A DNA stretch of 64,000 bases, from contig CAZYKH010000001.1 in the NCBI GenBank assembly GCA_964648225.1, positions 135,959-199,958 of the forward strand, read 5' to 3'. Shown piece after piece: positions 1,090 to 38,746 of the stretch. A model generated the notes under the pieces. That model was not told the origin of the DNA. It made no database searches and saw only the letters and a program-made list of their open reading frames with translations. The position numbers and the translations under genes are program-made. The stretch is from an uncultured Acholeplasma sp. (GTDB taxonomy: Bacteria; Bacillota_I; Bacilli_A; Acholeplasmatales; Acholeplasmataceae). Within the stretch, counting starts at the first letter, position 1, and every line of letters begins with the position of its first letter.

Positions 1090-1093
1090 TCTA

Positions 1094-1558: not shown

Positions 1559-1559
1559 A

Positions 1560-2477: not shown

Positions 2478-2482
2478 AATTA

Positions 2483-25900: not shown

Positions 25901-25974
25901 TCTGTACCTTCTGCACAAGCTACTAAAGTAACAAACGCTACAACAATACTTACCATAGTAAATATTTTCTTCAC
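22906..25974 (-). CDS. 1022-aa lipoprotein: Big_2 Ig-like repeats + parallel beta-helix-like region + N-acetylmuramoyl-L-alanine amidase (Amidase_2) domain
   Basis: GTG start with GGAGGAGG RBS and lipobox LVAC. Big_2-like segments (GLITALKAGNTTIKVTS, GIITAIAPGDFTITMT, GVVTPVGSGVVVITAT, GVVTSHTAGQVIITV). Amidase_2 region around aa 795-945 (nt ~23140-23592) has WITVHDTA, AWHAGDG, NAIAIEM and KHCP, so the Zn ligands His/His/Cys are present. Confidence 0.85.
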   Translation of the reverse strand: MKKIFTMVSIVVAFVTLVACAEGTDDTTKDITLSISSGPISLEVDDTFQLEITTNDPLGYEINVTDPSIIDVSNAGLITALKAGNTTIKVTSKTDEEVFKSVDVLVTEPTVELSIGEPSAYLWQGQTLQLQFEADGEVTFSSSNDLVATVDEGGIITAIAPGDFTITMTLKSDSSVKASIDLIVYDVATTILIEGETKLNVGSNVKLTTILGPETSVPQVIWSSSDEAVAQVSQDGVVTPVGSGVVVITATSIADEAVFANHEMTIYNELAVDVTKQDGDKVVINDLEFIYGASLFNTLEAALEKANDGTKIHVFDMTLDTSITLDKSDVTLIAATPNVVITKQLTIDAPGITIDGFKFSDEGFIKALESAENLTVVHNEFSNLDASVLAAIDVALAATLYVDKNTISNVDGHAILVREILDGKLDIKNNIIKNTKVAVEVLGTTYSEETSLQIAWNDIEDIETAFKVMLAETEISAFVRFNSVVNYSDKGAIANLNSNIDFTLNFWGSQTLDLNDFENIPERMLIGHYEEKADIVSEANFDPEIVLFIFVTTDLDTLWVGEELFIEYEYLPYELENARFRFRTTDADILMVEGTGKLVPKQSGEAAITISASSRASDAETTVDFKVTTDPGINLTPSIDTQSLVAGDSLTIEATPFPITIQDKAVTFESSNDLVATVDENGVVTSHTAGQVIITVRLADDSEVYETYYVTFYESLDENNLLDLLTLNQQAYLKKHDFWETGTGPSYRVVGYESVSNFYFDEIIIDTTKMIPDQYKGGRVRPGYALSDIPEPAITYNDKNVHWITVHDTANTDPSSSALSHANYLLGQAANNGAQVSWHYTIDDYEMYQHIPEGEVAWHAGDGSAPVGGPVIIQGIVRPELLGGGNRNAIAIEMNVGMGDDLYRIWQRTAKWASQTLVKYNLPREHIKFHQHFSGKHCPNALLVSGLEPKFQKMADVEYEVALNYANAQISMVSSNPEIIDHAGRVISMPTHNTTVSYTITVILDGQTSTRTFNVFVPGTTR

Positions 25975-27017
25975 TACTTTTCCTCCTCCATTTCATAAAT
26001 TATGTTCCCTATCTCATTTCTTAATCCAATGATTTGATTTAAATTTCTCTTAGGGTGGACCGCATTCGAAACTAAAACAAATCCCAATTTATTTTTCTTA
26101 TCGATAAACATATGACAACCTGTAAAACCTGTATGACCAATCGTTTGATCAAAATCACGGTACTTGCCAGCAAAACTATCATCATATGGTTTTAGATAAC
26201 CCAAGGTTCTTGTCACTTTGTAGCCCAAGGAATCATCAGTAATTACTGGTTCAAATAACATATCTGTTAATTGTTTGTTTAAAACAAATTCATCTTTTAA
26301 AATACTTTGAATGAATAATCCAATATCATAGGCTGTAGAAAACAAGCCGGCATGACCAGATAACCCACCTAGTAAATAAGATTTTTCATCATGGACTTGC
26401 CCTTTTAATAATCCTTTTGAAAAATCATCATCATGATATTCTGTAGGGGCAGCACGATTGACATCCGGTTTATAATTAGAATCTTTCATACTTAGTGGTT
26501 CAAAAACATACTTTATGGCTGCTTGATCAATGGGCATACCAAAAAGTTTTTCTGTAATTTTGCCCAGTAAGATAAACCCTACATCCGAATAAACTACTTT
26601 AGTGTGTGGTTCATATGTAAGTTCCATATTATAAATAATATCCATCACTGTACTACCATCTTTAACTGTACGTATTTTAGGTACATCTGCAGGTAGGCCT
26701 GATTGATGTGAAAGTAAATCTTTGATTGTTGTATTAGGGTGTTTATAACGTTCTAATAAAGTCTGTATTTTCGTTTCCAAACTTAATTGATTAAGCTCAA
26801 TTAATTTCATAATGAGCGTCGTTGTCGATATAACTTTTGTTAAAGAAGCTACATCATAAACTTCATCGCCTTTTAATACTTCCTTTGTTGGGTATATTTG
26901 TTTATACCCAACAAAGTCTGTTGTGATTTTATCTTTAGTTACGTAAGCATAGTGTGCGCCAGGAAATTTATTTTGTTCAATTGCACTTTGTAAAAACGCT
27001 TTTAATCTATTCATCAT
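25974..27017 (-). CDS. serine hydrolase of the beta-lactamase/AmiE (YbbE) family, cytoplasmic
   Basis: 347 aa with no signal peptide. Motifs SxxK (ASLTK), YSD and HTG (IGHTGFTG). Confidence 0.8.
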   Translation of the reverse strand: MMNRLKAFLQSAIEQNKFPGAHYAYVTKDKITTDFVGYKQIYPTKEVLKGDEVYDVASLTKVISTTTLIMKLIELNQLSLETKIQTLLERYKHPNTTIKDLLSHQSGLPADVPKIRTVKDGSTVMDIIYNMELTYEPHTKVVYSDVGFILLGKITEKLFGMPIDQAAIKYVFEPLSMKDSNYKPDVNRAAPTEYHDDDFSKGLLKGQVHDEKSYLLGGLSGHAGLFSTAYDIGLFIQSILKDEFVLNKQLTDMLFEPVITDDSLGYKVTRTLGYLKPYDDSFAGKYRDFDQTIGHTGFTGCHMFIDKKNKLGFVLVSNAVHPKRNLNQIIGLRNEIGNIIYEMEEEK

Positions 27018-30000
27018 GGTCTTTTCTTCATAATAAATACAATTGACGATACTACAAATATAATACCTATGACAACCGATGATATGATGCCTATGATTTG
27101 TAAGTTATTATTGCCTTCGGGTGTTTCTTCATCCGGTATTTCTTCACCTGGTGTTTCCTCATCTGGATTTCCATCAAACATATGTGTTTCCCAAGTATGT
27201 TCTACATCTTCTGTCCAATAATGTGTACTTAAACGATTAAGTGCTTTTTGCACTAAATCATTGTTTAAGTTTAATGATTTATATGAGAATATTGAACTAC
27301 CAATAATCTCTTCATATTGAGACATATATCTTAATTGTTCTAAGAATTCGGATTCATGCGGCCAATTATTAGAGTTTTCGGCATATCGATAAAAACCTTG
27401 ACCAATGATAAGATCTACATTTGTATCTTTAACCGTATCAACCCACCAATCCACTAAATCTGCAAAGCGTGCAGTTGAATGGTTAAATGGCCAATAAAGT
27501 TGCGGAATAATATAGTGTAACCAACCTTCTTTAACCCATTTTCTAGAATCTGCAAATTGTGCTGAATAGCTTGATAATCCCATAGAATTGGACCCTAATG
27601 GATCTTGAGATTTATTACGCCAAATACCAAATGGTGAAATACCAAATTTAACATGCATATCATTAGCTTCATTATGTGCTTCAACTAAATTAAAGATATC
27701 ACGAACAAGTGTATTAACATTTTCACGTCGCCAATCTTCACGTGATAACCCATTTGGATTAAAGTTTAAGAATGCATAATCATCTTCAGTATCTAATGTA
27801 CCGGAATAACTATAGAAGTAATCATCAAAATGAATACCATCAATTGCATAGTTTTCCATAATTTCTGCAACTATATTATATAAATATTGGCGTACTGCTG
27901 GCATACCAGGGTTTAAGATGAGTGCTCCATTTGTATCTTGAATGACATAGCTTGGGTTTTGTTTAGCGAAGTTAGAATCATGAAGTAATGATAATTGTTC
28001 TTCTTTGGAGCCCCCAGTATTAGATACTCGATAAGGGTTCATCCAAGCATGTACTTCAATACCTCGCTTATGTGCTTCATCTACTACAAATTCTAATACA
28101 TCCCAACCTACACCTACACCTTCTTCACCAGATAAATATCTAGAAAACGGGGCATATGCTGATGGATAAAATGCATCATTCATTGGTCTTGTTTGGAAAA
28201 ATAAGGTATTAAATTTCAATGTTTTCATACGTTCTAAAGCATTAATGATACTCGCTTTATATGATGCTTCATCTTCATATTGTGCTATATCAATGTTCGC
28301 TACAGTCGCTAGCCAAACAGCACGTATTTCTTTCGTTTTTTCAGTATATGAAGTAGGTAATTCTACTGGTGTATCCGTTTGATAATATGTAACTTTTTGT
28401 CCATTTCTGACAACAAATTGATTATCTTCAGTCAGCGGAATACGTACACGTACACGCACATCTAAAACATCTGATTCGATACCATTTTCAGCAATCGATT
28501 TATATTCTACGCGGAAGTTTGCTGATTCTGTGAATGTAAAACTTTCAGTGTAGATTTTCCATTCAGACCAATCAATACCATTATGGATACGGTAACTAAT
28601 TGTATCTGTTTCATTTTCCGCTTCTAAAATAACTTCAACCGGCTCAATAAAGTAGCCATCTTCTTCTGTACCATTTAATATAACTGTAACCTCACCCGGT
28701 CCTTCAACAATATTAAATTGATAACTAAATATTTTTTCTTGTGGTCCATTGCGATATTCTAATGTATAGTGTCCTAGTTGTTCATATAATATAGGTTCAA
28801 CATATTGTTGCCATGCACCACCATTTACACGATATCTTGGTTCTGGTGCATTTGGATCAAACTGGATATCTACTTCTAGCCACTCGAAATTAGGGGCAAC
28901 ACCATCTCCTGCAATTTGAATAGTTGGATCTGTGTAATTTGAAACTATTTTTAAGTTTTGTTGTATAGCATTTGATTCAACACCACCAGCATCAATTGTT
29001 TTAGCAAATACTGCATAATTTCCAGTATCTGTTAAGGTGATCGGACCTTCATAAAGTTCCCAAGGCCCAATACTTCCGTGGTTAATACGGACCCAAATTT
29101 CATGATCCTGTGCTGTAATTTCAATGTGTGCACCAGATTCATAATTATCCCCTATTTTATTACCAACGATTGTAATTTCAGGGACAACAAGGTTTTCTAT
29201 TTCTGTATAAAATGTTGTAACGAGTGTTTTCGATGCAACATCATTCGTATCAATCGCTTTATAATAAAGTTCGTGTCTCCCATTTGAAATAACTTCAATA
29301 GGTTCAGTATAAGTTACCCAAGTTTCTTGATCAAAACTATATAAAATATCATGATCACTTGTAAGCGTAATTGTTACTTGTGACATAAAGCGTTGGCCAA
29401 TGAAATCACCATCAAAGCTAATAGTTGGTGCTTCAACACTACTTTCTGGTAAATCACTTAAATGATTTGTGTAAGATAATGCTCTAACACCATATGTGTA
29501 ATTTGTAGATGTATCATTAGAATCCCAAGTGATTGTGGATTGTCCATCGTTATAAATAACATCTACAATTTGACTTTGTTCATATGCTAGTGCATCATCT
29601 GTTTTATAAATATAATAAAACTTTGCATCACTGTGACCATCAAATGTCAGTTCACCAGTTGCTGCATTATGTACAACGTTTGTTACCGTTGGTACTTTAA
29701 CTGGTGTCATACTTTTTAATGGTGGTAAGACTGCGATATGATTAAAATGATTATTGCGTGCATTGGTTAAATTTGCTTGTGATGGTCTATTTAAATTTTG
29801 ACCAGCATCGCGAATCATATTATATGAATAAATTGAAAAGCCTTGAACATTTTCATAAGTACTTAATATATCTAATTGATTACTAAATTCATTAGGATTA
29901 TTACGCCAAGAATAAACATTAGATTGGGTACCAGCATCTGCTAGATAAAGACCAACACCTGAATATAGGTTTACATCTAAGTATCTAACAACTTTTTCCC

Positions 30001-31024
30001 ACCAACCCATAACATCTTCAAGACCAGCTTGAGGATGAGTGATTGCCCAATAACTTTGAGGTAGCATATAATCTAGCCATCCTTCTTTGATCCAATGTAG
30101 CGTATCGGCAAATAAATAAGATTGATAATGTTCTTGTCCACTTGTTTTAGAACCATTGGTGATTGGCATACCATTAGAATCATAAGTCACTTCACCGTTA
30201 CCGTTTCTATAAATACCGGTTGGTGAAATACCAAATTGTACATAACGATTATTATCGATGTTAAATTGTTTGATTGCTTCATGGGTTGCTTCTATAAATA
30301 AATTTATTTGTTCACGGCGCCAATTACTCTTGCCTGCAACCGTATTTGGTTGTCCTAAAGGATCTGCTAAAAATAGTGTTTGATCTGGGTCATTTAAAAT
30401 ACTACCATTACCCATTTCCATATAAAAGTAATCATCAAAATGGATAGCATCTACATTATAGTTTTCAATAATCTCTAGAATTGTATTGACCACATGTTCT
30501 CTAACCACTGGTAAGGCAGGGTTTAATATGTGTGCTGTATTTTCTTTATTAGACAAAATATTTGCGGGATTACTTTGCGGATTTTCAGTTGGCATCGTTC
30601 CTCTTTGATAAGTGGTTGAAACACGATAGGGATTTAACCAAGCATGAAATTCAATACCACGTTTATGTGCTTCATCAATGAAGTATGCCATCGGATCAAA
30701 TACATCAAAATCAACACTTGAAAACCAGCTTGCTACTGGGTTAATTTCAGATTTATATAATGCGTTATTATGTGTTCTCATATGTACGATTGCAACATTT
30801 AAATTATTAATTTCCATATTATTTAATATGGCATTGACTTCATTTTTAAATGCTTGCTCGGTGGAGTATGCCTGCATACTACCAATAAAATGTGTGATCC
30901 ATGTTGCTCTAAACTCACCTTGTTCTTCTGCAACTTCAACTTCCGGATAAGCATAAACTTTTTGATTTGGAACAAGTGTGAGTGCTAAAATACTTATCAG
31001 TAAAAACAAAACTACTTTTTTCAT
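27014..31024 (-). CDS. 1336-aa surface enzyme with two GHL10 (DUF187, YngK/YddW-DigH-like) glycosidase domains, an Fn3-like domain and Ig-like repeats between them, and a C-terminal TM anchor
   Basis: Signal peptide. GHL10 signatures occur twice (HAWLNPYRVS + AIHFDDYFY; HAWMNPYRVS + GIHFDDYFY). P/E/T-rich linker, then TM IIGIISSVVIGIIFVVSSIVFI followed by MKKRP. Confidence 0.8.
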   Translation of the reverse strand: MKKVVLFLLISILALTLVPNQKVYAYPEVEVAEEQGEFRATWITHFIGSMQAYSTEQAFKNEVNAILNNMEINNLNVAIVHMRTHNNALYKSEINPVASWFSSVDFDVFDPMAYFIDEAHKRGIEFHAWLNPYRVSTTYQRGTMPTENPQSNPANILSNKENTAHILNPALPVVREHVVNTILEIIENYNVDAIHFDDYFYMEMGNGSILNDPDQTLFLADPLGQPNTVAGKSNWRREQINLFIEATHEAIKQFNIDNNRYVQFGISPTGIYRNGNGEVTYDSNGMPITNGSKTSGQEHYQSYLFADTLHWIKEGWLDYMLPQSYWAITHPQAGLEDVMGWWEKVVRYLDVNLYSGVGLYLADAGTQSNVYSWRNNPNEFSNQLDILSTYENVQGFSIYSYNMIRDAGQNLNRPSQANLTNARNNHFNHIAVLPPLKSMTPVKVPTVTNVVHNAATGELTFDGHSDAKFYYIYKTDDALAYEQSQIVDVIYNDGQSTITWDSNDTSTNYTYGVRALSYTNHLSDLPESSVEAPTISFDGDFIGQRFMSQVTITLTSDHDILYSFDQETWVTYTEPIEVISNGRHELYYKAIDTNDVASKTLVTTFYTEIENLVVPEITIVGNKIGDNYESGAHIEITAQDHEIWVRINHGSIGPWELYEGPITLTDTGNYAVFAKTIDAGGVESNAIQQNLKIVSNYTDPTIQIAGDGVAPNFEWLEVDIQFDPNAPEPRYRVNGGAWQQYVEPILYEQLGHYTLEYRNGPQEKIFSYQFNIVEGPGEVTVILNGTEEDGYFIEPVEVILEAENETDTISYRIHNGIDWSEWKIYTESFTFTESANFRVEYKSIAENGIESDVLDVRVRVRIPLTEDNQFVVRNGQKVTYYQTDTPVELPTSYTEKTKEIRAVWLATVANIDIAQYEDEASYKASIINALERMKTLKFNTLFFQTRPMNDAFYPSAYAPFSRYLSGEEGVGVGWDVLEFVVDEAHKRGIEVHAWMNPYRVSNTGGSKEEQLSLLHDSNFAKQNPSYVIQDTNGALILNPGMPAVRQYLYNIVAEIMENYAIDGIHFDDYFYSYSGTLDTEDDYAFLNFNPNGLSREDWRRENVNTLVRDIFNLVEAHNEANDMHVKFGISPFGIWRNKSQDPLGSNSMGLSSYSAQFADSRKWVKEGWLHYIIPQLYWPFNHSTARFADLVDWWVDTVKDTNVDLIIGQGFYRYAENSNNWPHESEFLEQLRYMSQYEEIIGSSIFSYKSLNLNNDLVQKALNRLSTHYWTEDVEHTWETHMFDGNPDEETPGEEIPDEETPEGNNNLQIIGIISSVVIGIIFVVSSIVFIMKKRP
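28445..29428 (-). repeat. four tandem ~75-85-aa Ig-like repeats (chitobiase/hexosaminidase C-terminal-like) inside the 1336-aa ORF
   Basis: aa ~533-860. Each unit has the pattern (I/V)x(I/L)..., an aromatic core and a Y(K/R)xI(D/A) ending, for example ...HELYYKAIDTNDVAS, ...NYAVFAKTIDAGGVES, ...HYTLEYRNGPQEK, ...NFRVEYKSIAENGIES. Boundaries approximate. Confidence 0.5.
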
Positions 31025-32238
31025 TTGTTGTCCTTTCTATTATTGAGTAATTTTTTAACAAGGTCCATACCTTGTTTTTGCTTTTCAGGTTCAATAAATG
31101 TCTTATAAGTGAAAAACACATTACCTTGGATAGTATCAAATTGATTCGCATATTTTATTTGATTTACAATTTCATATGGGTTTGAGTAACCACCTTTTTC
31201 ACCTAAGCGATATGCACCATGGCCAATATATAAATCAACTTGAGTACCATCGCATACATTTGCCCACCATTTGGTTAAATCACCAAATGGTGCTAATTCA
31301 TGTTCAAAATCCCAATAAATTTGTGGAATAATATAATCTATGTAACCTTCTTTGACCCATAGGTAACTATCGGCATATTGATTATCAAACGATTGACTAC
31401 ATTTTGGATTAACGTTGGCTCCAAGCACATCTTTGGATTTTGTTTTCCATATACCAAATGGTGATACTCCAAAGCGTAGTTTAGGATGTTTTTCTTTAAG
31501 TGCTTCGTTTAAGTTTTTAATAACATTGGTAATTTGTGATCTTCTAAAATCACCAAGTGTTTGTGACTTATCATCTCTTCTTTCAAAGTCTTCTAAGTCA
31601 TTATCATCATCACTTAAACCAGCATATGGATAAAAGTAATCATCAAAATGAATACCATCCACATCATAGTTATCTGCTATTTCTAACATCGATTCAATAA
31701 TAAAGTCTTGAACTTGTTTTTTTGCAGGATTTAAAATGAGCTGTCTATTTTTATCAGTAACAACTAAGTCCGGATATTTTTTAGCGAAATTTAGGTCATC
31801 TAAAGTTTCTAAATATTCCATTTTAGACATATCAATTTTCATGCTCACACGATACGGATTACACCAAGCATGCACTTCAATATTTCTTTTTTTAGCTTCT
31901 TTAATGACAAAGTCTAACACATCAAATTTTGGTGCAACACCTTCTTTACCAGTTAAATATTTTGAATAGGGATTGAACTTAGATTTGTAAAAAGCATCAT
32001 TAGTTGTTCGCACTTGAAAAAATATTGCTGTCATATGATAAGCTTTTGCTGTATCTAACATTTGAATAACTTTTTGTTGATAATTAGGATCTTGTGTTGT
32101 TGGTAGATCTATGTTAAGGACATTGGATACCCAAAAAGCTCTAAATGGTTTTTCTTGATAGTTTTCGGGGATAATAATTTGTTCTTCTGTTTCGTAATAA
32201 TTTAGTGGCTTATTCGTACCAAAATATGTTAACTTCAT
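31021..32238 (-). CDS. cytoplasmic GHL10 (DUF187) family glycosidase-like protein
   Basis: 405 aa with no signal peptide. Same signatures as the other two domains: HAWCNPYRVS, GIHFDDYFY, GVSPFGIW. Confidence 0.8.
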   Translation of the reverse strand: MKLTYFGTNKPLNYYETEEQIIIPENYQEKPFRAFWVSNVLNIDLPTTQDPNYQQKVIQMLDTAKAYHMTAIFFQVRTTNDAFYKSKFNPYSKYLTGKEGVAPKFDVLDFVIKEAKKRNIEVHAWCNPYRVSMKIDMSKMEYLETLDDLNFAKKYPDLVVTDKNRQLILNPAKKQVQDFIIESMLEIADNYDVDGIHFDDYFYPYAGLSDDDNDLEDFERRDDKSQTLGDFRRSQITNVIKNLNEALKEKHPKLRFGVSPFGIWKTKSKDVLGANVNPKCSQSFDNQYADSYLWVKEGYIDYIIPQIYWDFEHELAPFGDLTKWWANVCDGTQVDLYIGHGAYRLGEKGGYSNPYEIVNQIKYANQFDTIQGNVFFTYKTFIEPEKQKQGMDLVKKLLNNRKDNK

Positions 32239-33533
32239 TTGTTATACACTCCATAGTATGTTAAATATTCTTTGTGCTTATCATATAATGCATTAAATGC
32301 ATCCTTGGTTGATTTAAATGATTTAGATAAGGGGTGAATTTGAAAAGCTAACAATGCCTTATTTAAATCTTTTTCATAAATTGCATCACATAGTAATTCT
32401 TCATATGCTTTTAAGTGTTGAACAATACCACGCACATGTAAAGGTAGTTCACCAATATGAACGGGTATTGGTCCATCTTTAGTCATGCGAGCGGTAATTT
32501 CAATAGACGTTTCATCGGGTATACCAACGATATGACCGTGGTTTACTGTATGAATGACATGGTAGTTTTTCTTGTTATTTTTAATAGAGTCCATAATTTC
32601 AACTGCGGTTTGAGCAAAACTATGATCTAAGAGCTTTTGCATGTCTTTAAAAACATTTAAAGTATTTTCATCAGCATATTTTTTATATAACAAGTCATTA
32701 AATTCAATCATTTGATTGGTTAGTATTTTTTTATTTTTTTGGTTATCTAAAAATGTTTTTGTAACGACTTCATCTTGATAATAATACTTTAAATTAGGAT
32801 GTGGATAACATCCTAAACGTTGTAGATTTTCTAAAGCCATCGGATGATTTTTTGGTAAAAATCCACCGGATAATAACTTTGGTAATTTATCTTTTCCTTT
32901 ATGATAAACTTTAAGCATAAAGGATAGTTCGCTTAAACCAGCATAATATGGGACAAGTTCATTAGGATGTGCTTTTAGTTTATCTATAACTTCCTTAGTT
33001 ATTTGATTTGGCTCATTTGATAGACCAATATAACGGTCAAACTCACTAAAACGACATACCGCTTCACTAATAATACCGGTTGGGTTTGTTGCATTAATCA
33101 CCCATGCTTTTGGGGCTAGTTCTTTAATGTCTTCGATCATTTCATAAATTACCGGAACAGTTCTTAAGGCATTAAATAACCCACCAATGCCTATCGATTC
33201 ATGACCAAGCATATTAAATTCAGCCGGTATGGTTTCGTCATAAAAACGTGCTTGCATGTGACCAACTCTAATTTGAATAAGAACAAAATCAGCATCCAAT
33301 AGACCATGTCTTTGGTTTAAGCTAGATGTAACTGAAATTGGTATGTTGTGATGTTTTAACATTCTTTGAATGAAATTGGTCATAATGTCTAAGCGTTCTT
33401 CACTTGTTTTTAAATCAATTAAAACTACTTCTGTAAATTTTAAATCATCATAATGTTTGATGATGTATTCAAATACTTCTGCTGTATTCGTTGATGCGCC
33501 ACCTAATATGGCCAGTTTTAGTTTTGTTTGCAT
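32235..33533 (-). CDS. GH4-like NAD-dependent glycosidase homologue with non-canonical metal-site residues
   Basis: 432 aa. By eye it aligns along its length to E. coli ChbF-type GH4 (KLAILGGASTNTAE, DADFVLIQIRVG, WVINATNPTGIISEA). It has IGLSNEP where GH4 has G(V/L)CN(I/V)P, and AGLSE where GH4 has GLNH. Confidence 0.75.
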   Translation of the reverse strand: MQTKLKLAILGGASTNTAEVFEYIIKHYDDLKFTEVVLIDLKTSEERLDIMTNFIQRMLKHHNIPISVTSSLNQRHGLLDADFVLIQIRVGHMQARFYDETIPAEFNMLGHESIGIGGLFNALRTVPVIYEMIEDIKELAPKAWVINATNPTGIISEAVCRFSEFDRYIGLSNEPNQITKEVIDKLKAHPNELVPYYAGLSELSFMLKVYHKGKDKLPKLLSGGFLPKNHPMALENLQRLGCYPHPNLKYYYQDEVVTKTFLDNQKNKKILTNQMIEFNDLLYKKYADENTLNVFKDMQKLLDHSFAQTAVEIMDSIKNNKKNYHVIHTVNHGHIVGIPDETSIEITARMTKDGPIPVHIGELPLHVRGIVQHLKAYEELLCDAIYEKDLNKALLAFQIHPLSKSFKSTKDAFNALYDKHKEYLTYYGVYNK

Positions 33534-33549
33534 TATATCACTTTCTTTT

Positions 33550-34698
33550 CTAGGTAAAGTATGAAACTGTACCTAACACTACATGTTTTTTAGCGCCGGT
33601 TGCGCTTGGTAAATTGGCTGTTTGTTGAAATAATGTTTGATTACCCAATACAATGAAGGCTAACGCTTCTTTATAATCACTTGATACCCCCACATCGTCA
33701 CTAGATAATACTTTAATATCTGGTAAAGATTTTTGTATAAAATTCATTAAAAATTGATTATGTACACCGCCACCAGAAATAATTAATTCATCGACTTCGT
33801 GTTTGTTTAAGATAAATTGTTTAATATTCGATATCATCGTTGATGCTGTTGCAACCGTTAAAGTATGAATGATATCTTCTGGTGCATGATTTTTGTATTT
33901 TGTCATTAAAGTTTGTGTGTATGCCCCACCAAATTGTTCTCTACCACAAGATTTTGGTGGCATTTGGTGAACAAATGGGTGCTGCATAATTTCATCATAT
34001 AACGGTAAGATGAGTTGACCTTTTTTTGCAATTTGACCACCATCATCATAAGGTTTGTTGTATAACTTTTCCATAGCATAATTAATCATCATATTGCCTG
34101 GTCCTGTATCAAATGCATAGACGTCATGTTCATTTTTCGTTTTTGGTAAATACGTAATATTAGAAATACCACCAATATTTTGTGCAATGCGTGATTTATC
34201 GCTACTTGACAATAATAGATAATCTACATAAGGTACAAGTGGTGCACCTTGTCCGCCTTGAATCATATCAGCAATTCTAAAATCAGAAACTACTGTTGTT
34301 TCTGTCAGTCCTGCAATGACTGAGCCACTACCTAATTGTAAAGTAGATGGTAATCTTGTATCTTCTATTTCGCTTTGATGGTAAACAGTTTGTCCGTGCG
34401 ATGCAATAAAGTTTAAGCTCGATGGGCTTAATTTTAATTCTTTACACAAACTGATAACACAACTTGCATAGAGCCGACCCAACTCAAAATGAAGACTCGA
34501 TACGTCTTTAACTGTTAGTTGGTCTGTCACTGCAAGTTTTACCTTTTCAAGTAACATTGGTGGATAATCAAATGTTTTACCTGCAATCATTTCTATTTTA
34601 GTTGTTAAACCAGTACCTGAGATGGTTGCTATCACTACATCAATGCCATCAAGCGATGTACCACTCATAATACCGCATGCTAACTTAGACTGATTCAT
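33550..34698 (-). CDS. anmK: anhydro-N-acetylmuramic acid kinase
   Basis: GIMSGTSLDGIDV N-terminal motif and AnmK-like length. Start moved from 34731 to ATG 34698, which has AAGAGG 8 nt upstream; the putative -10 element overlaps 34731. Confidence 0.9.
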   Translation of the reverse strand: MNQSKLACGIMSGTSLDGIDVVIATISGTGLTTKIEMIAGKTFDYPPMLLEKVKLAVTDQLTVKDVSSLHFELGRLYASCVISLCKELKLSPSSLNFIASHGQTVYHQSEIEDTRLPSTLQLGSGSVIAGLTETTVVSDFRIADMIQGGQGAPLVPYVDYLLLSSSDKSRIAQNIGGISNITYLPKTKNEHDVYAFDTGPGNMMINYAMEKLYNKPYDDGGQIAKKGQLILPLYDEIMQHPFVHQMPPKSCGREQFGGAYTQTLMTKYKNHAPEDIIHTLTVATASTMISNIKQFILNKHEVDELIISGGGVHNQFLMNFIQKSLPDIKVLSSDDVGVSSDYKEALAFIVLGNQTLFQQTANLPSATGAKKHVVLGTVSYFT

Positions 34699-34731
34699 AA
34701 TCAAAACCTCTTTAATTTGTGATATTTTCAT

Positions 34732-34843: not shown

Positions 34844-35689
34844 TTATCGTTTAAATTTTTTAAATGTTCGATATGTAGTTTCTAATGCTTGCACAGATCG
34901 GTCAATATCGGTATACGCACATTTTGCATACAATGCATCTATAACAGACATTTGAGAAATTCTTGATGTCATCGCTGCACTTCTAAATTCTGACTCTAAT
35001 GCCGATGTATATAATACAACATCAGATATATCTGCTAAAATACTGGAACCAATTCTAGTAATACTAATAATTGGTGTTTTATTTTCTTTGGCTAATAATG
35101 CTGAAGAAACTATTTCTTTTGTCTTACCAGAGTTTGAAACAAATATAACAACATCCTTATGATTAATAAATGATGCATCGACTAATTGATCGTGTGATTC
35201 ACCTTGTGCAATACAAAACTTATTAATACGTCTAAGTTTCATTTCCAAATCTTTACATACTAAATAACTAGAACCTTTACCAAAAATTAAAATCTTTCGA
35301 GCACTCATTATTAATTGGGCAGCTTTAGTATATGTTTTTTCATCATAAAGATTAATGGTCTCTTCTAAAGCTCTAATATTATTTTCAATTGCCTTGCGTC
35401 CACTATTTTGATCTTTAATTAAAATAACGTCTGTATACTCACTAGTTTCAGGTATTTCTACTTTAGAATTGGCTAGAATAAAGTCAATCTTAAAGTCTTT
35501 AAACCCTTTATATCCTAATTTTTTACACATTCTAACAACGGATGCAGGTGAAGTATAAGCGGCTTCAGCAATTTTTTCTACACTAAAATCTTTGATTTGA
35601 GTTTTGTTTTCAATCAAATAATCTAAAACAATGCGTTCGGCCATACTTAGTGCTTCTTTATTTTTTAGCATGTTTAACATTACACTCAT
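34844..35689 (-). CDS. murR: MurR/RpiR family transcriptional regulator (HTH_6 + SIS)
   Basis: 281 aa. N-terminal RpiR-type HTH (IAEAAYTSPASVVRMCKKLGYKGFKDFK) and a C-terminal SIS domain (ILIFGKGSSYLV). Confidence 0.85.
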   Translation of the reverse strand: MSVMLNMLKNKEALSMAERIVLDYLIENKTQIKDFSVEKIAEAAYTSPASVVRMCKKLGYKGFKDFKIDFILANSKVEIPETSEYTDVILIKDQNSGRKAIENNIRALEETINLYDEKTYTKAAQLIMSARKILIFGKGSSYLVCKDLEMKLRRINKFCIAQGESHDQLVDASFINHKDVVIFVSNSGKTKEIVSSALLAKENKTPIISITRIGSSILADISDVVLYTSALESEFRSAAMTSRISQMSVIDALYAKCAYTDIDRSVQALETTYRTFKKFKR

Positions 35690-35770: not shown

Positions 35771-37174
35771 TTAAATGACCTTTTTAGGATTTAAAATATG
35801 TTTTGGATCAAAGACTGATTTAATGCCTCGCATCAGTTCAATTTGTTCTTTACCTAAGAGTTCATGCATGTATGCTTTTTTGGCAATACCTATACCATGC
35901 TCTCCTGAGACCCTACCACCATAACTAAAAGCTTTTTCATAAAGTAAGTCAAAAGCATTTTTTAATACTTTTTGCCAGGAAGTTTCATCCATATTATCCT
36001 TACATAAATAAATGTGTAGGTTACCATCTCCAATATGGCCAAAATATGGGATTCTAACATTAAGTTTTTTACTCACTTCATTCACATAATTTAAAAAGCT
36101 TTCAATATGTGATCTTGGTAAAACGACATCACATTCATCAATAAAGTCAGAGCTTGCCTTAATGGCATTTAAAAATCCACCACGTATATTCCATATATTG
36201 GAACGATGTTTTTGTGGGTCAACGATTAAGGCACTTTTTGCACCATATGTTTCTAACATAAGTTTTTTTACATGTTCTAAATCTTTATCAAGTGATGACT
36301 CATTACTACTATCATAACTTAATAGCAAGTAAGCATTGGCACCTTCACCTTCAACTTTTGTACCAAAAAAGGTTTCACTATACTCCACTGCTTGCTTTTC
36401 AAAAAACTCAACGGCCGTTGGTAGTATAAAGTCTTTAATGAGTTTAGGTGATGCATGAATGGCATCACTTCTTTTATCAAAAGCAACCAACATAGATTTT
36501 GTGTACTTTGGTTTTGGAATGAGTTTTAAGGTTGCACTGACAATAATTGCTAGGGTACCTTCACTACCTATGATTAAGTCTTTAAGTCCATAACCGGTCG
36601 AATCCTTAACCACTTTTCCACCTAGTGTTAAAAGCTCACCCTTAGGGGTCACTACTTCTAGTGCGCGCACCCATGCTCTTGTTGTACCATATTTAATGGC
36701 ACGCATTCCACCAGCATTGGTTGAAATATTACCACCAATCGATGCACGTTTTTCACCAGGATCTGGTGCATAAAATAATCCTTTAGATTCTACTGCATCA
36801 TAGATTTCAAATAACCTAACGCCTGGTTCGACTGTCAAGGTTAAATTAACTTCATCAAGTTCGATGATTTTATTCATCCCAGACATATCTAATAATATAC
36901 CACCTAAAATAGGCACAGCAGCACCGACTAAGCCGGTGCCTGCGCCTCTTACTGTTACGGGTATGGATGCTTTATAAGCATATGCCATTATTTTTACAAC
37001 TTGATGTTTGTCTTGAATGCGTATATAAATATCTGGCATATGTTGTGCAGTGCCTAATTGATCATGACTATACTTAGGATCAATGTCTTTACCCATTTTT
37101 ATATGATCTGAACCAACAATTTCTTTTAGGTATAAAAAATCATCGGTATTTACTTTTTTATATGTCATCTTCAC
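35771..37174 (-). CDS. FAD-linked oxidase, GlcD / D-lactate dehydrogenase family
   Basis: 467 aa. FAD_binding_4 motifs (VTVRGAGTGLVGAAVP, GGNISTNAGGMRAIKYG) and a C-terminal FAD-oxidase domain (GEHGIG). Confidence 0.85.
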   Translation of the reverse strand: MKMTYKKVNTDDFLYLKEIVGSDHIKMGKDIDPKYSHDQLGTAQHMPDIYIRIQDKHQVVKIMAYAYKASIPVTVRGAGTGLVGAAVPILGGILLDMSGMNKIIELDEVNLTLTVEPGVRLFEIYDAVESKGLFYAPDPGEKRASIGGNISTNAGGMRAIKYGTTRAWVRALEVVTPKGELLTLGGKVVKDSTGYGLKDLIIGSEGTLAIIVSATLKLIPKPKYTKSMLVAFDKRSDAIHASPKLIKDFILPTAVEFFEKQAVEYSETFFGTKVEGEGANAYLLLSYDSSNESSLDKDLEHVKKLMLETYGAKSALIVDPQKHRSNIWNIRGGFLNAIKASSDFIDECDVVLPRSHIESFLNYVNEVSKKLNVRIPYFGHIGDGNLHIYLCKDNMDETSWQKVLKNAFDLLYEKAFSYGGRVSGEHGIGIAKKAYMHELLGKEQIELMRGIKSVFDPKHILNPKKVI

Positions 37175-37177
37175 TAC

Positions 37178-38746
37178 CTAATTAGTTTGAGCAATATTTC
37201 TAAATAGATCTAATATCGCACGGACATCATCATTGTGGACATTATATGTAAATGTATCACTAAATGGTGAGGTTGCATAGTTTGGATTACCTTTAACCCG
37301 TACTTGGATTTCATGGGTTCCGGCTGCTAATATTAAAGGTATGGATTCTTTCGTAACATAAGTTTCTCGTCCATTAATCTTTAATATATATTGCATGTTT
37401 TCATTATTACCTGTGAAATGGAATACCCCTTCACCATCTACATATAACCCAGTTGGTGCTTCATAAGATGCTCTTGTATCTGGATAAGGTATTTCATAAA
37501 ATGTTGGTTCTAAATTACCTCTTGCAAATAATAAACCATTAGAAATGGATCGTATTGTCCCATCAGAGAACGTATTAAGACCATCATATTCACCTGTTTC
37601 ATCATTTCTTAATAACATTGTTGATGAACCACCACCATCTAAGTTAAAGGCATTAACTGCACCGTGAAGCTTCATTAATTCCCCTAATTCACCATATTTA
37701 ACACCATTTTTACCAGCTATAATATCACGACCATCAACAACGATAAAGAAAATTGTACCATCTTCTTTTTCACCAACTGCAGTTCTTGGGTGACGGAAGT
37801 GTGCCATATTATTACTTGGTAGCGATTGGAAGTAATCGTGTTGAACAACACCATTAAGAACTAGTGGTGCACCAGCACCAATAGCGTGTCTGACATTTTC
37901 AAAACCATTACCTAATAGTTCTTGAACAAGTAACGTATCAGTTGGTTGAATTAAATCTTCATCCTGAAACATTTTACCAACTAAAATAAATGATTTTTCT
38001 TCAACCGTAACTGCTTCAGTTGTTTTATAATCCAGTTGACCTTTAGAATAATTAGCATTACCATTAGCATCTGTTTTAATATCGCTTGCTTTTACGACGA
38101 CCTTAATATAATCTTCTGGAATTTCATCTTCAAAAGATGTATGGAAGATTGCTACCTCTAAATCATTTTGCGGTAATTGATTAATGCGATCAATTTTAAT
38201 ACGTTTTTTAAGTTCTCTAAACTCATTTAAAATATTTAAGTGTTGTCCTAAAAAGCTTGGATTGCCATGAACCATATCACCATCTGTTGTAAAACCTATC
38301 ACACTACGGTGAATGCTTGCTCCAACACCACGGTGTTTAACTTCATAATCTACAATATGTGTATGTGTTGAACGTCCGGTATTATTGATATCATAAAAGT
38401 CACCATTCACACCTGCAGTAATTTCTAACTGTGGAAATCTTTGTTGCGCAGTTGCGATATGTACTCTTAAATTAGACATACCCCATTCAAATGGGCGATA
38501 ATTATCACTAGCAATAACATTATAATCTGTTGTTTTGAGGTTAACTCCTAGATAATTATAATGTTGTTCTTTTTGTTCCTCATTCCATGTTAACAAACCT
38601 GTTCTGCGAATATGTTCTAAACCGTGAACATAACGTCTTTCATGAGTTAATATATCAAATCTAAAATCATTAGCACTATATGTATTCGGTGTTAATGATA
38701 ACAGCAGCATAATTGATACAAATATTGTTATAAATAGTTTTTTCAT
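37178..38746 (-). CDS. secreted phosphodiester glycosidase family protein (DUF2233 / NAGPA-like) with C-terminal Ig-like domain
   Basis: 522 aa. Signal peptide ending TYS|AND, RTAVGEKEDGTIFFIVVDGR and NLDGGGSSTM motifs characteristic of DUF2233. Confidence 0.75.
   Translation of the reverse strand: MKKLFITIFVSIMLLLSLTPNTYSANDFRFDILTHERRYVHGLEHIRRTGLLTWNEEQKEQHYNYLGVNLKTTDYNVIASDNYRPFEWGMSNLRVHIATAQQRFPQLEITAGVNGDFYDINNTGRSTHTHIVDYEVKHRGVGASIHRSVIGFTTDGDMVHGNPSFLGQHLNILNEFRELKKRIKIDRINQLPQNDLEVAIFHTSFEDEIPEDYIKVVVKASDIKTDANGNANYSKGQLDYKTTEAVTVEEKSFILVGKMFQDEDLIQPTDTLLVQELLGNGFENVRHAIGAGAPLVLNGVVQHDYFQSLPSNNMAHFRHPRTAVGEKEDGTIFFIVVDGRDIIAGKNGVKYGELGELMKLHGAVNAFNLDGGGSSTMLLRNDETGEYDGLNTFSDGTIRSISNGLLFARGNLEPTFYEIPYPDTRASYEAPTGLYVDGEGVFHFTGNNENMQYILKINGRETYVTKESIPLILAAGTHEIQVRVKGNPNYATSPFSDTFTYNVHNDDVRAILDLFRNIAQTN

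What the first reader, a model, noticed from the sequence alone, without database searches (positions are those of the whole stretch)
32235..33533. GH4-like protein in which both canonical Mn2+ ligands appear replaced (Cys to Ser172, His to Glu202)
By eye the ORF aligns end to end with GH4 enzymes such as ChbF/CelF and GlvA, including the N-terminal dinucleotide fold GGASTNTAE and the NATNPTG motif. At the position of the conserved G-x-C-(N/H/D) metal-ligand Cys it reads IGLSNEP. At the GLNH His ligand it reads AGLSELS. As I recall, characterised GH4 enzymes use this Cys/His pair (Cys171/His202 in GlvA) for their NAD+/Mn2+ redox-elimination mechanism. A Ser/Glu pair suggests a different metal, a metal-independent variant or a new activity. 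It sits directly downstream of anmK, so it could be a 6-phospho-MurNAc-type glycosidase analogous to MupG.
Basis: partly seen in the sequence, partly recalled or inferred. Interest (0 to 1): 0.65.

Follow-up and report, generated by a model that had tools for sequence, protein, structure and literature searches.

The report
GH4 enzyme with rebuilt catalytic centre
A wall-less Acholeplasma that feeds on other bacteria's cell walls keeps, under strong selection, a family-4 glycosidase whose manganese ligands and catalytic tyrosine have all been replaced, so it cannot work like any studied member of the family and is either a new metal-free variant or a non-catalytic relic.

Summary
The ORF (minus strand, 32235-33533, 432 aa) is a full-length GH4 protein (Pfam N and C domains; AF2 model TM 0.90 to 1S6Y/5C3M/1UP6). 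Ser172 and Ser201-Glu202 stand where 100% of about 95 canonical homologues have Cys and Asn-His, the BglT Cys162/His192 Mn2+ ligands.

It is the orthologue of a fully canonical GH4 found in the same peptidoglycan-sugar operon in Izemoplasmatales, other Acholeplasmataceae and Bacillaceae: MurR, AnmK, BadF kinase or Lac/Cel PTS, GH4, GHL10. In Bacillaceae MupG and MurQ are in that operon too. All six canonical Mollicute loci keep a kinase fused in front of GH4; none of about eleven altered loci has it. A tree of neighbouring genes indicates two or three independent co-losses.

GH4L evolved fast during the change and is now tightly constrained (dN/dS 0.04-0.15). The classical mechanism is gone. 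My best guess (0.45) is an NAD(H)-dependent, Mn-independent enzyme acting on unphosphorylated GlcNAc-(anh)MurNAc just upstream of AnmK. The main rival (0.3) is a non-catalytic binding partner. A MupG-like role is unlikely.

The parts
32235..33533 (-). GH4-like protein (GH4L), 432 aa; the finding itself
   Evidence: ORF. Pfam GH4 N and C domains. PDB HMMER 1e-76 to 5C3M/1S6Y. AF2 pLDDT 94 and TM 0.90. dN/dS 0.145 against a 97%-identical strain, and 0.040 within the S/E clade.
33477..33503 (-). Dinucleotide-fold motif G11-G-A-S14-T-N-T-A-E19. With Asp40 (33414-33416) and N147/N150 (33084-33095) it makes up the retained NAD(H)-binding signature
   Evidence: G11, S14 and D40 are invariant in all altered clades and in canonical GH4. 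N147 and N150 are kept except in the SP clade.
33018..33020 (-). Ser172 codon (TCA), at the position of the Mn2+-ligand Cys (BglT Cys162)
   Evidence: No variant at this codon among the variants listed for four metagenomes.
32928..32933 (-). Ser201-Glu202 codons, at the position of Asn-His (BglT Asn191-His192, the Mn2+ ligand)
   Evidence: Invariant in the 11 S/E-clade sequences. No variant listed at these codons.
32793..32801 (-). His245-Pro-Asn247. Asn247 replaces the Tyr that aligns with BglT Tyr241. His245 is a new residue conserved in this group
   Evidence: Alignment. Tyr is 100% in the canonical set. His245 is present in 94% of the core group, against Ser in 78% of canonical sequences.
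33201..33203 (-). His111, replacing the 98%-conserved Gln of the GQET motif, next to the conserved Glu112
   Evidence: His in 100% of the SE/ND/hippikon/NE group.
32622..32633 (-). Leu301-Leu-Asp303-His304, where canonical GH4 has the 98-99% conserved R-G-G-A. This stretch is polymorphic within the species
   Evidence: R301L, G302L, G303D, A304H; the 97%-identical strain has R, G and R at positions 301, 303 and 304; the window allele is in 3 metagenomes and another allele in a fourth.
33550..34731 (-). anmK, anhydro-N-acetylmuramic acid kinase, 16 nt upstream of GH4L
   Evidence: Pfam AnmK 4e-99. NCBIfam equivalog 537 bits against a cut-off of 435.
34844..35689 (-). MurR/RpiR-type regulator (HTH_6 plus SIS)
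   Evidence: 72-97% identical across all related loci.
35771..37174 (-). FAD-linked oxidase, D-lactate-dehydrogenase-like. In relatives it is preceded by EtfAB
   Evidence: ETF genes. That it uses the D-lactate released by MurQ is an inference.
37178..38746 (-). Secreted NAGPA-domain phosphodiester glycosidase
   Evidence: Conserved at this place in most related loci.
31021..32238 (-). GHL10 (DigH/YddW-family) glycosidase-like protein with no signal peptide. Its start overlaps the GH4L stop by 4 nt
   Evidence: Pfam GHL10 1.9e-64. Overlap. It lies immediately downstream of GH4 or GH4L in every Acholeplasmatales/Izemoplasmatales locus whose downstream flank was recovered.
27014..31024 (-). 1336-aa surface protein with two GHL10 domains, an N-terminal signal sequence and a C-terminal membrane anchor
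25974..27017 (-). Beta-lactamase-fold protein, PBP4B/AmpH-like
22906..25974 (-). Secreted Amidase_2 (MurNAc-L-Ala amidase) with Big_2 domains
367..6057 (-). Distal end of the same minus-strand gene block: NamZ (4924-6057), GH3 NagZ (3360-4991), BadF-type GlcNAc/MurNAc kinase (2483-3373), MurQ etherase (1560-2477), GNAT (1094-1558), NagB (367-1089)
   Evidence: MurQ 398 bits against a cut-off of 168; NagZ 209.5 against 207.

Best explanation
GH4L is the Acholeplasma orthologue of a kinase-coupled (in Bacillaceae, PTS-coupled) GH4 6-phospho-beta-glycosidase. That enzyme belongs to a conserved operon for eating peptidoglycan glycan strands.

Ancestral logic (inferred). GHL10 enzymes cut peptide-free glycan. 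A BadF kinase or a Lac/Cel-type PTS phosphorylates the only free 6-OH of a beta-linked disaccharide such as GlcNAc-1,6-anhydroMurNAc. GH4 splits it by the NAD+/Mn2+ redox-elimination route. AnmK then turns the released anhydroMurNAc into MurNAc-6-P for MurQ.

Change in this lineage (shown). The partner kinase has been lost. The catalytic centre has been rebuilt: Cys to Ser172, Asn-His to Ser201-Glu202, Tyr to Asn247, Gln to His111, Ser to His245, and in this strain R271L and R301L. The fold, the Rossmann NAD(H) signature and strong purifying selection are all kept.

Consequences. It therefore cannot use the classical Cys/His-Mn2+ plus Tyr mechanism; this follows from the sequence together with the published mechanism. 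The most likely reading is inferred, not shown. It would still be an NAD(H)-dependent enzyme working just upstream of AnmK, on an unphosphorylated GlcNAc-(anh)MurNAc-type fragment. Polar side chains (Ser172, Ser201, His111, His245) would take the place of Mn2+ in holding O3 and the C2 substituent. Glu202 would serve as the relocated general base.

Confidence by step: orthology and remodelling about 0.9; classical mechanism lost about 0.8; still catalytic about 0.5; named substrate about 0.3.
For: Same synteny for every ligand variant. MurR, AnmK, GH4L, GHL10, GHL10x2 and downstream genes flank the S/E, S/D, C/D-type, C/H (A. hippikon), C/E, S/Q and S/P forms.

Canonical GH4 at the same place elsewhere. 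A GH4 with GVCNVP, GLNH, PYH[RK]YYY and RGGAYYS occupies this position in Izemoplasmatales, other Acholeplasmataceae, Priestia, Peribacillus, Gottfriedia and Epulonipiscium.

Kinase correlation. An orthologous BadF kinase overlaps the GH4 start in four of the canonical Mollicute loci and lies directly upstream of it in the other two. It is absent from all altered loci. The only BadF kinase in the 64-kb window is a 27%-identical paralogue next to murQ.

PTS coupling in Bacillaceae. In Priestia the operon reads MurR, Lac/Cel-family EIIC, GH4, AnmK, MupG, kinase, MurQ.

Independent origins. In a neighbour-gene tree of 1476 columns the S/Q lineage nests inside the canonical Izemoplasmatales with 99% support. 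The S/P lineage falls outside the 100%-supported Acholeplasma core.

Rate burst. Canonical pairs are more alike in GH4 than in AnmK or GHL10 (78 vs 60 and 66%; 68 vs 55 and 60%). Pairs that include an altered member show the reverse (37 vs 52 and 65%).

Renewed constraint. dN/dS is 0.040 for GH4L, 0.133 for anmK and 0.064 for GHL10 at dS about 0.8. Between 97%-identical strains it is 0.145. No frameshift or stop was seen in any of about 25 sequences.

Signs of a live site. G11, S14 and D40 are invariant. His111 (100%) and His245 (94%) are new conserved residues of the core group. The replacements at the four metal-site positions are almost all polar hydrogen-bonding residues. Every clade keeps one possible base at position 202 or 247: E202, D202, D247, E202, Y247 and D247.

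Precedent. NAD+-dependent glycosidases of GH109 and GH188 work without a metal (PMC10755693).
Against: No activity, cofactor or metal measurement exists.

The replacements differ between lineages, as expected if constraint on catalysis was simply lifted.

Non-phospho GH4 enzymes keep Cys/His, so loss of the phosphate does not by itself explain loss of the metal site. This rests on my knowledge of AglA and related enzymes and was not checked here.

The window already encodes NagZ and NamZ, which could perform every glycosidic cleavage needed.

This strain has additionally lost Y16, P18, R271, R301 and G303. Codons 173, 174 and 301-304 are polymorphic within the species. That looks like local relaxation.

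I could not read model coordinates, so it is untested whether His111 and His245 lie near Ser172 and Glu202.

The role of BglT Tyr241 as catalytic base rests on my memory of Yip 2004 and Varrot 2005, not on a paper I could open.

The canonical enzyme's substrate is itself inferred from gene context.
Confidence: 0.45

Rival explanations
1. Non-catalytic relic (pseudoenzyme). Once the kinase or PTS route was replaced by the NagZ/NamZ route, catalysis became dispensable and the catalytic residues drifted. The protein is kept because it has a second, kinase-independent role that needs only the fold and NAD(H) or sugar binding. Such a role could be as a partner or stabiliser of AnmK or of the translationally coupled cytoplasmic GHL10, or as a ligand carrier.
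For: Lineage-specific, non-convergent replacements occur at Cys, Asn, Asn-His and Tyr. Between 12 and 33 of 79 near-invariant family positions are lost, depending on the clade. There was a rate burst relative to neighbouring genes. The kinase was lost but GH4L kept in two or three independent lineages, which argues for a kinase-independent role. NagZ and NamZ are present. The RGG loop and residues 173/174 are polymorphic within the species. GH4L and GHL10 overlap by 4 nt.
Against: dN/dS of 0.04 is lower than for the flanking bona fide enzymes. The NAD motif is invariant. New conserved His residues sit in former active-site loops. A potential base is retained in every clade. Small Mollicute genomes rarely keep non-catalytic proteins in catabolic operons (general knowledge). 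No interaction data exist.
Confidence: 0.3
2. Same job with a different metal. It is still a 6-phospho-beta-glycosidase using redox-elimination, but Ser172/Glu202 (perhaps with His111/His245) hold a harder or differently coordinated divalent ion (Mg2+, Ca2+, Mn2+ or Fe2+). The phospho-substrate would be made by the distant BadF kinase at 2483-3373.
For: Within the core Acholeplasma group position 202 is always H, D or E and position 172 always C or S. All of these are possible ligands, in a graded series C/H, C/D, S/D, S/E. R89, R96, D99, E112 and N150 are kept in the S/E clade. A BadF kinase exists in the locus.
Against: The Tyr aligned with the BglT base is Asn. The dedicated kinase is gone in every altered locus. 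Asn201 and Asn173 are also changed. In this strain R271 and R301, conserved at 91-97% in both the CN and CD subgroups, are Leu. Ser is a poor ligand for Mn2+ (general chemistry).
Confidence: 0.12
3. One reading: a 6-phospho-MurNAc glycosidase that does MupG's job by a modified GH4 mechanism.
For: It is adjacent to anmK, whose product is MurNAc-6-P. No MupG gene is in the window.
Against: MurNAc has no free 3-OH to oxidise, so the family mechanism cannot start (mechanism as in PMC10755693; MurNAc structure is established). AnmK yields MurNAc-6-P at the reducing end, not as a glycone. Canonical orthologues coexist with MupG in one operon. NamZ is present and is reported to be the alternative to MupG (PMC8054146). 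There is no PTS in the locus to make MurNAc-6P-GlcNAc.
Confidence: 0.03
4. A decaying pseudogene or an assembly or annotation artefact.
For: Many conserved residues are lost.
Against: The 432-codon frame is intact here and in about 25 relatives from independent assemblies. dN/dS is 0.04-0.145. The same allele occurs in contigs of several metagenomes, with no indels. The model is confident.
Confidence: 0.02

Closest known systems
GH4 6-phospho-beta-glucosidases of the 'CNVP' type: Geobacillus Gan4C (5C3M) and 1S6Y, Thermotoga BglT (1UP6); also ChbF/LicH by family knowledge
   Same: Same two Pfam domains, length and fold (TM 0.88-0.90). 33-34% identity to Gan4C/1S6Y by Foldseek. The GxGS...D dinucleotide motif, N-x-x-N-P, R89, R96, D99 and E112 are retained. 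The direct orthologues in sister lineages are ordinary members of this group.
   Different: Cys to Ser172, Asn-His to Ser201-Glu202, Tyr to Asn247, Gln to His111, Phe to Ala148, R271L and R301L. In all, 24 of 79 near-invariant positions are changed. There is no partner kinase or PTS. No NCBIfam model reaches its cut-off.
GlvA (1U8X) and other GH4 6-phospho-alpha-glucosidases
   Same: Same family and fold (TM 0.83).
   Different: More distant (20% identity). GlvA has the Cys-Asp motif and keeps the metal site.
Metal-independent NAD+-dependent glycosidases (GH109 alpha-N-acetylgalactosaminidase, GH188 sulfoquinovosidase SqgA)
   Same: They show that the oxidation-elimination-hydration-reduction route can run without a metal, using Tyr, His or Glu side chains. 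GH109 acts on a 2-acetamido sugar (PMC10755693). This is what GH4L may work like.
   Different: They have a different fold family (Gfo/Idh/MocA-like) and no sequence relationship to GH4L. GH4L is not a member of those families.
MupG (GH170) 6-phospho-N-acetylmuramidase
   Same: It works in the same pathway neighbourhood, on peptidoglycan disaccharides ahead of MurQ.
   Different: It is an unrelated TIM-barrel fold and needs no NAD+ (PMC6262408). It is encoded next to the canonical GH4 orthologue in Bacillaceae, so the two are complementary, not equivalent.
NagZ (GH3) beta-N-acetylglucosaminidase
   Same: It cleaves GlcNAc-anhMurNAc and GlcNAc-MurNAc; a B. subtilis nagZ mutant accumulates both (PMC8054146). 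That is the reaction I propose for GH4L.
   Different: It is an unrelated fold and mechanism. A NagZ gene is also present in this window (3360-4991), which raises the question of redundancy.

Membership tests
Glycoside hydrolase family 4 (sequence/fold family) | Both Pfam domains (PF02056 and PF11975) above the gathering score | tested here: met
   149.1 bits against a cut-off of 23.2 and 122 against 24.1, covering residues 6-402.
Glycoside hydrolase family 4 (sequence/fold family) | LDH-like two-domain fold superposable on solved GH4 structures | tested here: met
   AF2 pLDDT 94. Foldseek TM 0.90 to 1S6Y/5C3M and 0.88-0.89 to 1UP6.
Glycoside hydrolase family 4 (sequence/fold family) | N-terminal dinucleotide-binding motif (G-x-G-S plus an acidic residue at the end of beta-2) | tested here: met
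   G11-G-A-S14 and D40 are present and invariant in the subfamily. Actual NAD+ binding was not measured.
GH4 as a mechanistic class (NAD+/Mn2+ redox-elimination glycosidases) | Conserved Cys and His that hold the divalent metal (BglT Cys162/His192) | tested here: not met
   Ser172 and Glu202; the neighbouring Asn201 is also Ser (ligand identity from PMC10755693).
GH4 as a mechanistic class (NAD+/Mn2+ redox-elimination glycosidases) | Catalytic Tyr in the P-Y-x-[RK]-Y-Y loop (BglT Tyr241; its role is recalled, not read here) | tested here: not met
   Asn247 aligns with it in the HMMER and MAFFT alignments. Tyr is 100% in the canonical set.
GH4 as a mechanistic class (NAD+/Mn2+ redox-elimination glycosidases) | Glycosidase activity that depends on NAD+ and Mn2+ | not testable with these tools
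   This needs enzyme assays.
6-phospho-beta-glucosidase subgroup (ChbF/LicH/BglT type) | C-N-V-P and G-L-N-H motifs, and coupling to a PTS or kinase that makes the 6-phosphate | tested here: not met
   The motifs read S-N-E-P and G-L-S-E. The dedicated kinase found in all six canonical Mollicute loci is absent, and there is no PTS in the window.
MupG / GH170 6-phospho-N-acetylmuramidases | MupG_N and MupG_C domains (PF19200, PF05913) | tested here: not met
   The Pfam scan of the ORF returns only the GH4 domains plus a sub-threshold His_biosynth hit. True MupG genes lie beside the canonical orthologues in Bacillaceae.
Metal-independent NAD+ glycosidases (GH109, GH188) | Gfo/Idh/MocA-type fold with the family-specific C-terminal domain | tested here: not met
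   All of the 49 best structural matches are GH4, followed by LDH. The resemblance would be mechanistic only.

The most novel reading that the evidence does not exclude
GH4L is the first GH4 enzyme that runs the NAD+ redox-elimination reaction without the Cys/His-bound metal and without the canonical Tyr. It would use a relocated carboxylate base (Glu202) and new histidines, and act on unphosphorylated GlcNAc-1,6-anhydroMurNAc. The same escape from metal dependence would have arisen two or three times, each time the partner kinase was lost. The ancestral AnmK-kinase-GH4 module, PTS-GH4-AnmK-MupG in Bacillaceae, would itself be an undescribed route for anhydro-muropeptide catabolism.
Probability: 0.35. 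Interest if true: 0.75.

Novelty: new variant of a known kind. Interest (0 to 1): 0.6.

Why it matters
Every characterised GH4 enzyme needs NAD+ and a Cys/His-bound divalent metal. A member kept under strong selection without that site, and without the catalytic Tyr, is one of two things. It may be a natural experiment showing how the redox-elimination mechanism can be rebuilt without a metal, as in the unrelated GH109 and GH188 families. Or it may be the first GH4 pseudoenzyme.

The comparative series is unusually clean and contains cultured strains. The forms run from fully canonical (Priestia, Izemoplasmatales) to Cys/His kept but Tyr lost (A. hippikon), then Ser or Cys with Asp (A. oculi ATCC 27350), and finally Ser/Glu (this window).

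The work also exposes an apparently undescribed module for catabolism of lytic-transglycosylase products: AnmK, BadF kinase or Lac/Cel PTS, and GH4, next to GHL10/DigH-like enzymes. It shows too that wall-less Acholeplasma from compost, manure and landfill carry a roughly 39-kb gene block for feeding on other bacteria's peptidoglycan.

Finally, automatic annotation of these proteins as '6-phospho-beta-glucosidase' is very probably wrong.

Tried and rejected
1. GH4L as a replacement for the MurQ etherase, either by oxidising C1 or by NAD+-driven oxidative cleavage of the 3-O-lactyl ether. I rejected this. A normal murQ is in the same gene block (1560-2477, 398 bits). Such chemistry has no precedent.

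2. GH4L opening a 1,6-anhydro ring by the GH4 route, as levoglucosan dehydrogenase pathways do. This is impossible for anhMurNAc because O3 is etherified. I found no evidence for an anhydro-GlcNAc substrate.

3. A single origin of all altered forms. The GH4 tree groups them with only 60% support and long branches. The neighbour-gene tree contradicts it for the S/Q lineage at 99%. The grouping is therefore probably long-branch attraction.

4. Literature.
- No paper in the library combines GH4 with AnmK, MupG or NamZ beyond a passing mention.
- No listed paper links Acholeplasma or Izemoplasma to peptidoglycan catabolism.
- I could not open Varrot 2005, Yip 2004, Rajan 2004 or Hall 2009. One guessed PMC id turned out to be an unrelated paper. 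The roles of Tyr241 and of the phosphate-binding residues therefore rest on memory.

5. Superposing the model on 1UP6 to measure distances around Ser172, Glu202, His111 and His245. The model's coordinates are not exposed to the script tool, so this was not done.

6. The 50%-identity representative search did not list a representative for the S/E cluster itself. It served only to show how rare forms without Cys/His are.

7. Some pairwise identities are extraction artefacts and were not used (GHL10 of L004, AnmK of L007).

Full report
OBSERVATION. The ORF lies on the minus strand at 32235-33533 (432 aa). Pfam finds both GH4 domains from end to end (1.3e-43 and 4.6e-35). The best solved relatives are the Geobacillus 6-phospho-beta-glucosidases 5C3M and 1S6Y (1e-76) and Thermotoga BglT. 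An AlphaFold2 model built on a 53-sequence alignment has pLDDT 94. It superposes on 1S6Y/5C3M at TM 0.90 and on 1UP6 at 0.88-0.89.

HMMER aligns IGLS172NEP with GLCNVP and AGLS201E202LS with GLNH. These alignments are anchored by the invariant G170 and G199. In my numbering of the BglT chain the aligned residues are Cys162 and His192. PMC10755693 names these two as the conserved Mn2+ ligands.

THE CHANGE IS WIDER THAN REPORTED. In about 95 canonical homologues the columns for Cys172, Asn173, Asn201, His202 and Tyr247 are 100% conserved. Tyr247 is the Tyr of the P-Y-x-[RK]-Y-Y loop and aligns with BglT Tyr241. I recall that residue as the C2 base from Yip 2004 and Varrot 2005, but I could not open those papers.

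The window protein has Ser, Asn, Ser, Glu and Asn at these five positions. It also has His for the 98%-conserved Gln111 and Ala for Phe148. In this strain Y16N, P18A, R271L, R301L and G303D are added. R271 and the RGG arginine are 91-97% conserved in both the 'CN' and 'CD' subgroups of the family. Altogether 24 of 79 positions that are at least 95% conserved in 91 canonical sequences are changed; the canonical sequences themselves retain 98.7% on average.

Contigs from four metagenomes list no variant at codons 172, 201, 202 or 247. Codons 173, 174 and 301-304 are polymorphic within the species, and the window's L301/D303/H304 allele is present in three of the four runs. The organism occurs in landfill, compost, manure and soil.

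SURROUNDINGS. Positions 367-39398 are one minus-strand block for using peptidoglycan. It contains, in order:
- a NAGPA phosphodiester glycosidase, an FAD D-lactate-dehydrogenase-like oxidase and MurR;
- AnmK, GH4L and a cytoplasmic GHL10 whose start overlaps the GH4L stop by 4 nt;
- a 1336-aa surface GHL10x2 protein, a PBP4B-like protein and a secreted Amidase_2;
- an 822-aa protein of unknown function and an Ig-like surface protein;
- a 971-aa solute-binding protein and two pairs of ABC permease genes, with DUF5696, Yip1-domain and TPR-containing proteins between them, and a DUF624 protein after the second pair;
- NamZ, NagZ, a BadF-type kinase, MurQ, a GNAT and NagB.

GHL10 is the family of E. 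coli DigH, a hydrolase specific for peptide-free glycan that also releases anhydro-ended products (PMC12288456). All close homologues come from Acholeplasma-type genomes. This is therefore a wall-less bacterium feeding on other bacteria's walls.

ORTHOLOGY. Every homologue with unusual ligands sits in the same gene order, MurR, AnmK, GH4L, GHL10, GHL10x2 and downstream genes. The forms are:
- S + SE, the clade of the window (64-97% identity, 11 clusters);
- S or C + ND, which includes A. oculi ATCC 27350;
- C + NH but Tyr to Asp, in A. hippikon;
- C + NE;
- S + YQ;
- S + SP.

Crucially, fully canonical GH4 genes occupy the same position in other Acholeplasmataceae and in Izemoplasmatales. They are also linked to anmK, GHL10 and murR in Bacillaceae and Epulonipiscium. 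In Priestia megaterium the operon reads MurR, Lac/Cel-family PTS EIIC, GH4, AnmK, MupG, BadF kinase, MurQ. The ancestral protein was thus an ordinary 6-phospho-beta-glycosidase of a peptidoglycan-sugar operon, working alongside MupG rather than instead of it.

WHAT CHANGED WITH IT. In all six canonical Mollicute loci an orthologous BadF kinase (49-66% identical to one another) lies between anmK and GH4. It overlaps the GH4 start by 4-17 nt in the three loci where I checked this. In none of about eleven altered loci is it present. The only BadF kinase in the window is a 27%-identical paralogue next to murQ.

A tree of the neighbouring genes (AnmK + MurR + D-LDH + GHL10, 1476 columns) gives three results. 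The S/YQ lineage falls inside the canonical Izemoplasmatales with 99% support. The S/SP lineage falls outside the Acholeplasma core. The core itself has 100% support. Kinase loss and catalytic-site replacement therefore went together at least twice, probably three times. The weak (60%) grouping of all altered forms in the GH4 tree is best read as long-branch attraction.

TEMPO. Between canonical genomes GH4 is the best-conserved gene of the block: 78% identity against 60% for AnmK and 66% for GHL10, or 68% against 55% and 60%. Whenever an altered member is in the pair GH4L is the worst: 37% against 52% and 65%.

Yet inside the S/E clade, at dS about 0.8, GH4L has dN/dS of 0.040, against 0.133 for anmK and 0.064 for GHL10. 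Between the window and a 97%-identical strain the value is 0.145. This is a burst of change followed by renewed, strong constraint. It is not a decaying gene.

MECHANISM. It is shown that the Cys/His metal site and the loop Tyr are absent. It is also shown that the dinucleotide motif (G11, S14, D40, N147, N150) is intact and that the protein is under selection. It follows from the published family mechanism (PMC10755693, PMC10628242) that the classical Mn2+-assisted C3-oxidation and C2-deprotonation cannot run as in BglT or GlvA.

The rest is inferred. Three features suggest a rebuilt, still functional pocket rather than an abandoned one:
- the replacements at the four metal-site positions are nearly all polar hydrogen-bonding residues;
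- the core group has gained two conserved histidines in active-site loops, His111 (100%) and His245 (94%);
- each clade keeps one possible general base at position 202 or 247: E202, D202, D247, E202, Y247 and D247.

Metal-free NAD+ glycosidases exist in other folds, namely GH109 and GH188. With the kinase gone, the natural substrate would be an unphosphorylated disaccharide released by the coupled cytoplasmic GHL10. GlcNAc-1,6-anhydroMurNAc is the best candidate, because its cleavage yields AnmK's substrate. I give this reading 0.45.

The main rival (0.30) is a non-catalytic protein kept for a kinase-independent role. Four points favour it: the replacements do not converge between lineages, NagZ and NamZ are present, further conserved arginines are lost in this strain, and there is polymorphism next to Ser172.

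A simple metal swap with unchanged activity gets 0.12. It is weakened by the loss of the Tyr and of the kinase.

The MupG-like idea gets 0.03, for three reasons. MurNAc lacks a free 3-OH. AnmK leaves the phosphate on the reducing-end sugar. MupG coexists with the canonical orthologue.

COMPARISON AND NOVELTY. By sequence and fold this is a GH4 protein. As a mechanistic class member it fails two defining features that I tested: the metal ligands and the loop Tyr. No solved GH4 structure, and none of the characterised enzymes I know of, lacks the Cys/His pair. Among the 150 best 50%-identity representatives 91 are C-N-N-H-Y and most of the rest vary only at position 173 or 247. About 10 lack Cys/His, three of them of the S/SP type. 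No NCBIfam model reaches its cut-off. Databases call these proteins '6-phospho-beta-glucosidase' or 'hypothetical'. I found no paper linking GH4 to AnmK or MupG pathways, or Acholeplasma to peptidoglycan catabolism.

I rate it a new variant of a known kind, with interest 0.6. The evolutionary pattern is clean and testable with cultured strains. The actual activity remains unknown.

LIMITS. No ligand-level structural check was possible, because model coordinates are not exposed. The identity of the phosphate-binding residues and the role of Tyr241 rest on memory. The substrate of the canonical module is inferred from gene context only. The kinase correlation rests on two or three evolutionary events, not on seventeen independent loci.

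Noticed in passing
window 367-39398 (all minus strand): A wall-less Acholeplasma carries a roughly 39-kb uninterrupted gene block for degrading and importing foreign peptidoglycan. It holds a secreted amidase, GHL10 enzymes, NAGPA, two pairs of ABC permease genes, NamZ, NagZ, a kinase, MurQ, NagB, AnmK and a D-lactate oxidase. I found no paper describing peptidoglycan scavenging in Acholeplasma or Izemoplasma.
   Followed up: partly
L085 (Priestia megaterium) 1335-11748; L066 (Peribacillus muralis): A Bacillaceae operon reads GHL10 (divergent), MurR, Lac/Cel-family PTS EIIC, canonical GH4, AnmK, MupG, BadF kinase, MurQ. It looks like an undescribed PTS route for anhydro-muropeptide disaccharides in which GH4 and MupG would split the two kinds of linkage.
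   Followed up: partly
L011 5024-6004; L089 9030-10004; L090 9022-10017: A distinct BadF/NagK-like kinase is translationally coupled to canonical GH4 in Izemoplasmatales and Acholeplasmataceae. It is only about 27% identical to the murQ-adjacent kinase of the window. Its substrate is unknown; a disaccharide 6'-kinase is one possibility.
   Followed up: partly
window 37178-38746: A secreted NAGPA-domain ('uncovering enzyme'-type) phosphodiester glycosidase is conserved at the head of the locus. It could cut the GlcNAc-1-P-6-MurNAc linkage that anchors teichoic acids, leaving MurNAc-6-P on the glycan. This is untested.
   Followed up: no
window 20288-22756: An 822-aa ORF with no Pfam hit. An ORF of about 770-820 aa follows the amidase gene in most of the related loci, so it is a conserved unknown component of the system.
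   Followed up: no
window 8641-13675 and 15514-18429: Three genes, DUF5696 (862 aa, 4e-158), a Yip1-domain membrane protein and a 603-aa protein with a sub-threshold TPR hit, sit between the two pairs of ABC permease genes. The solute-binding protein is unusually long (971 aa), with the SBP domain only in residues about 580-876.
   Followed up: no
window 35771-37174; L005, L006, L089, L090: The FAD-linked D-lactate-dehydrogenase-like gene is preceded by EtfB/EtfA in several relatives but not in the window. This suggests an electron-bifurcating lactate oxidation step for the D-lactate released by MurQ.
   Followed up: no
window 33012-33017 and 32622-32633: Within-species polymorphism occurs right beside Ser172: N173S in three of four metagenomes and E174K in two. 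It also occurs in the former R-G-G-A loop, where L301/D303/H304 alternates with R/G/R. Five of the 11 amino-acid differences from the 97%-identical strain fall in residues 301-316, the only part of the model with lower confidence.
   Followed up: partly
window 25974-27017: The beta-lactamase-fold protein best matches E. coli PBP4B (YfeW). As I recall, and not checked here, yfeW lies next to murQP in E. coli. The association may therefore be ancient.
   Followed up: no
window 34699-34731: The longest anmK ORF has 11 extra N-terminal codons compared with the gene called in the 97%-identical strain (L088). The true start is probably the internal ATG (MNQSK...).
   Followed up: no
P0139, P0143, P0151, P0166, P0216, P0234: A few other deeply divergent GH4-like representatives also lack Cys/His. 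P0234, for example, has GVSGIQ / GPSELS / N, an S-SE-N pattern like the window's. Their genomic context could not be looked up with the tools allowed.
   Followed up: no
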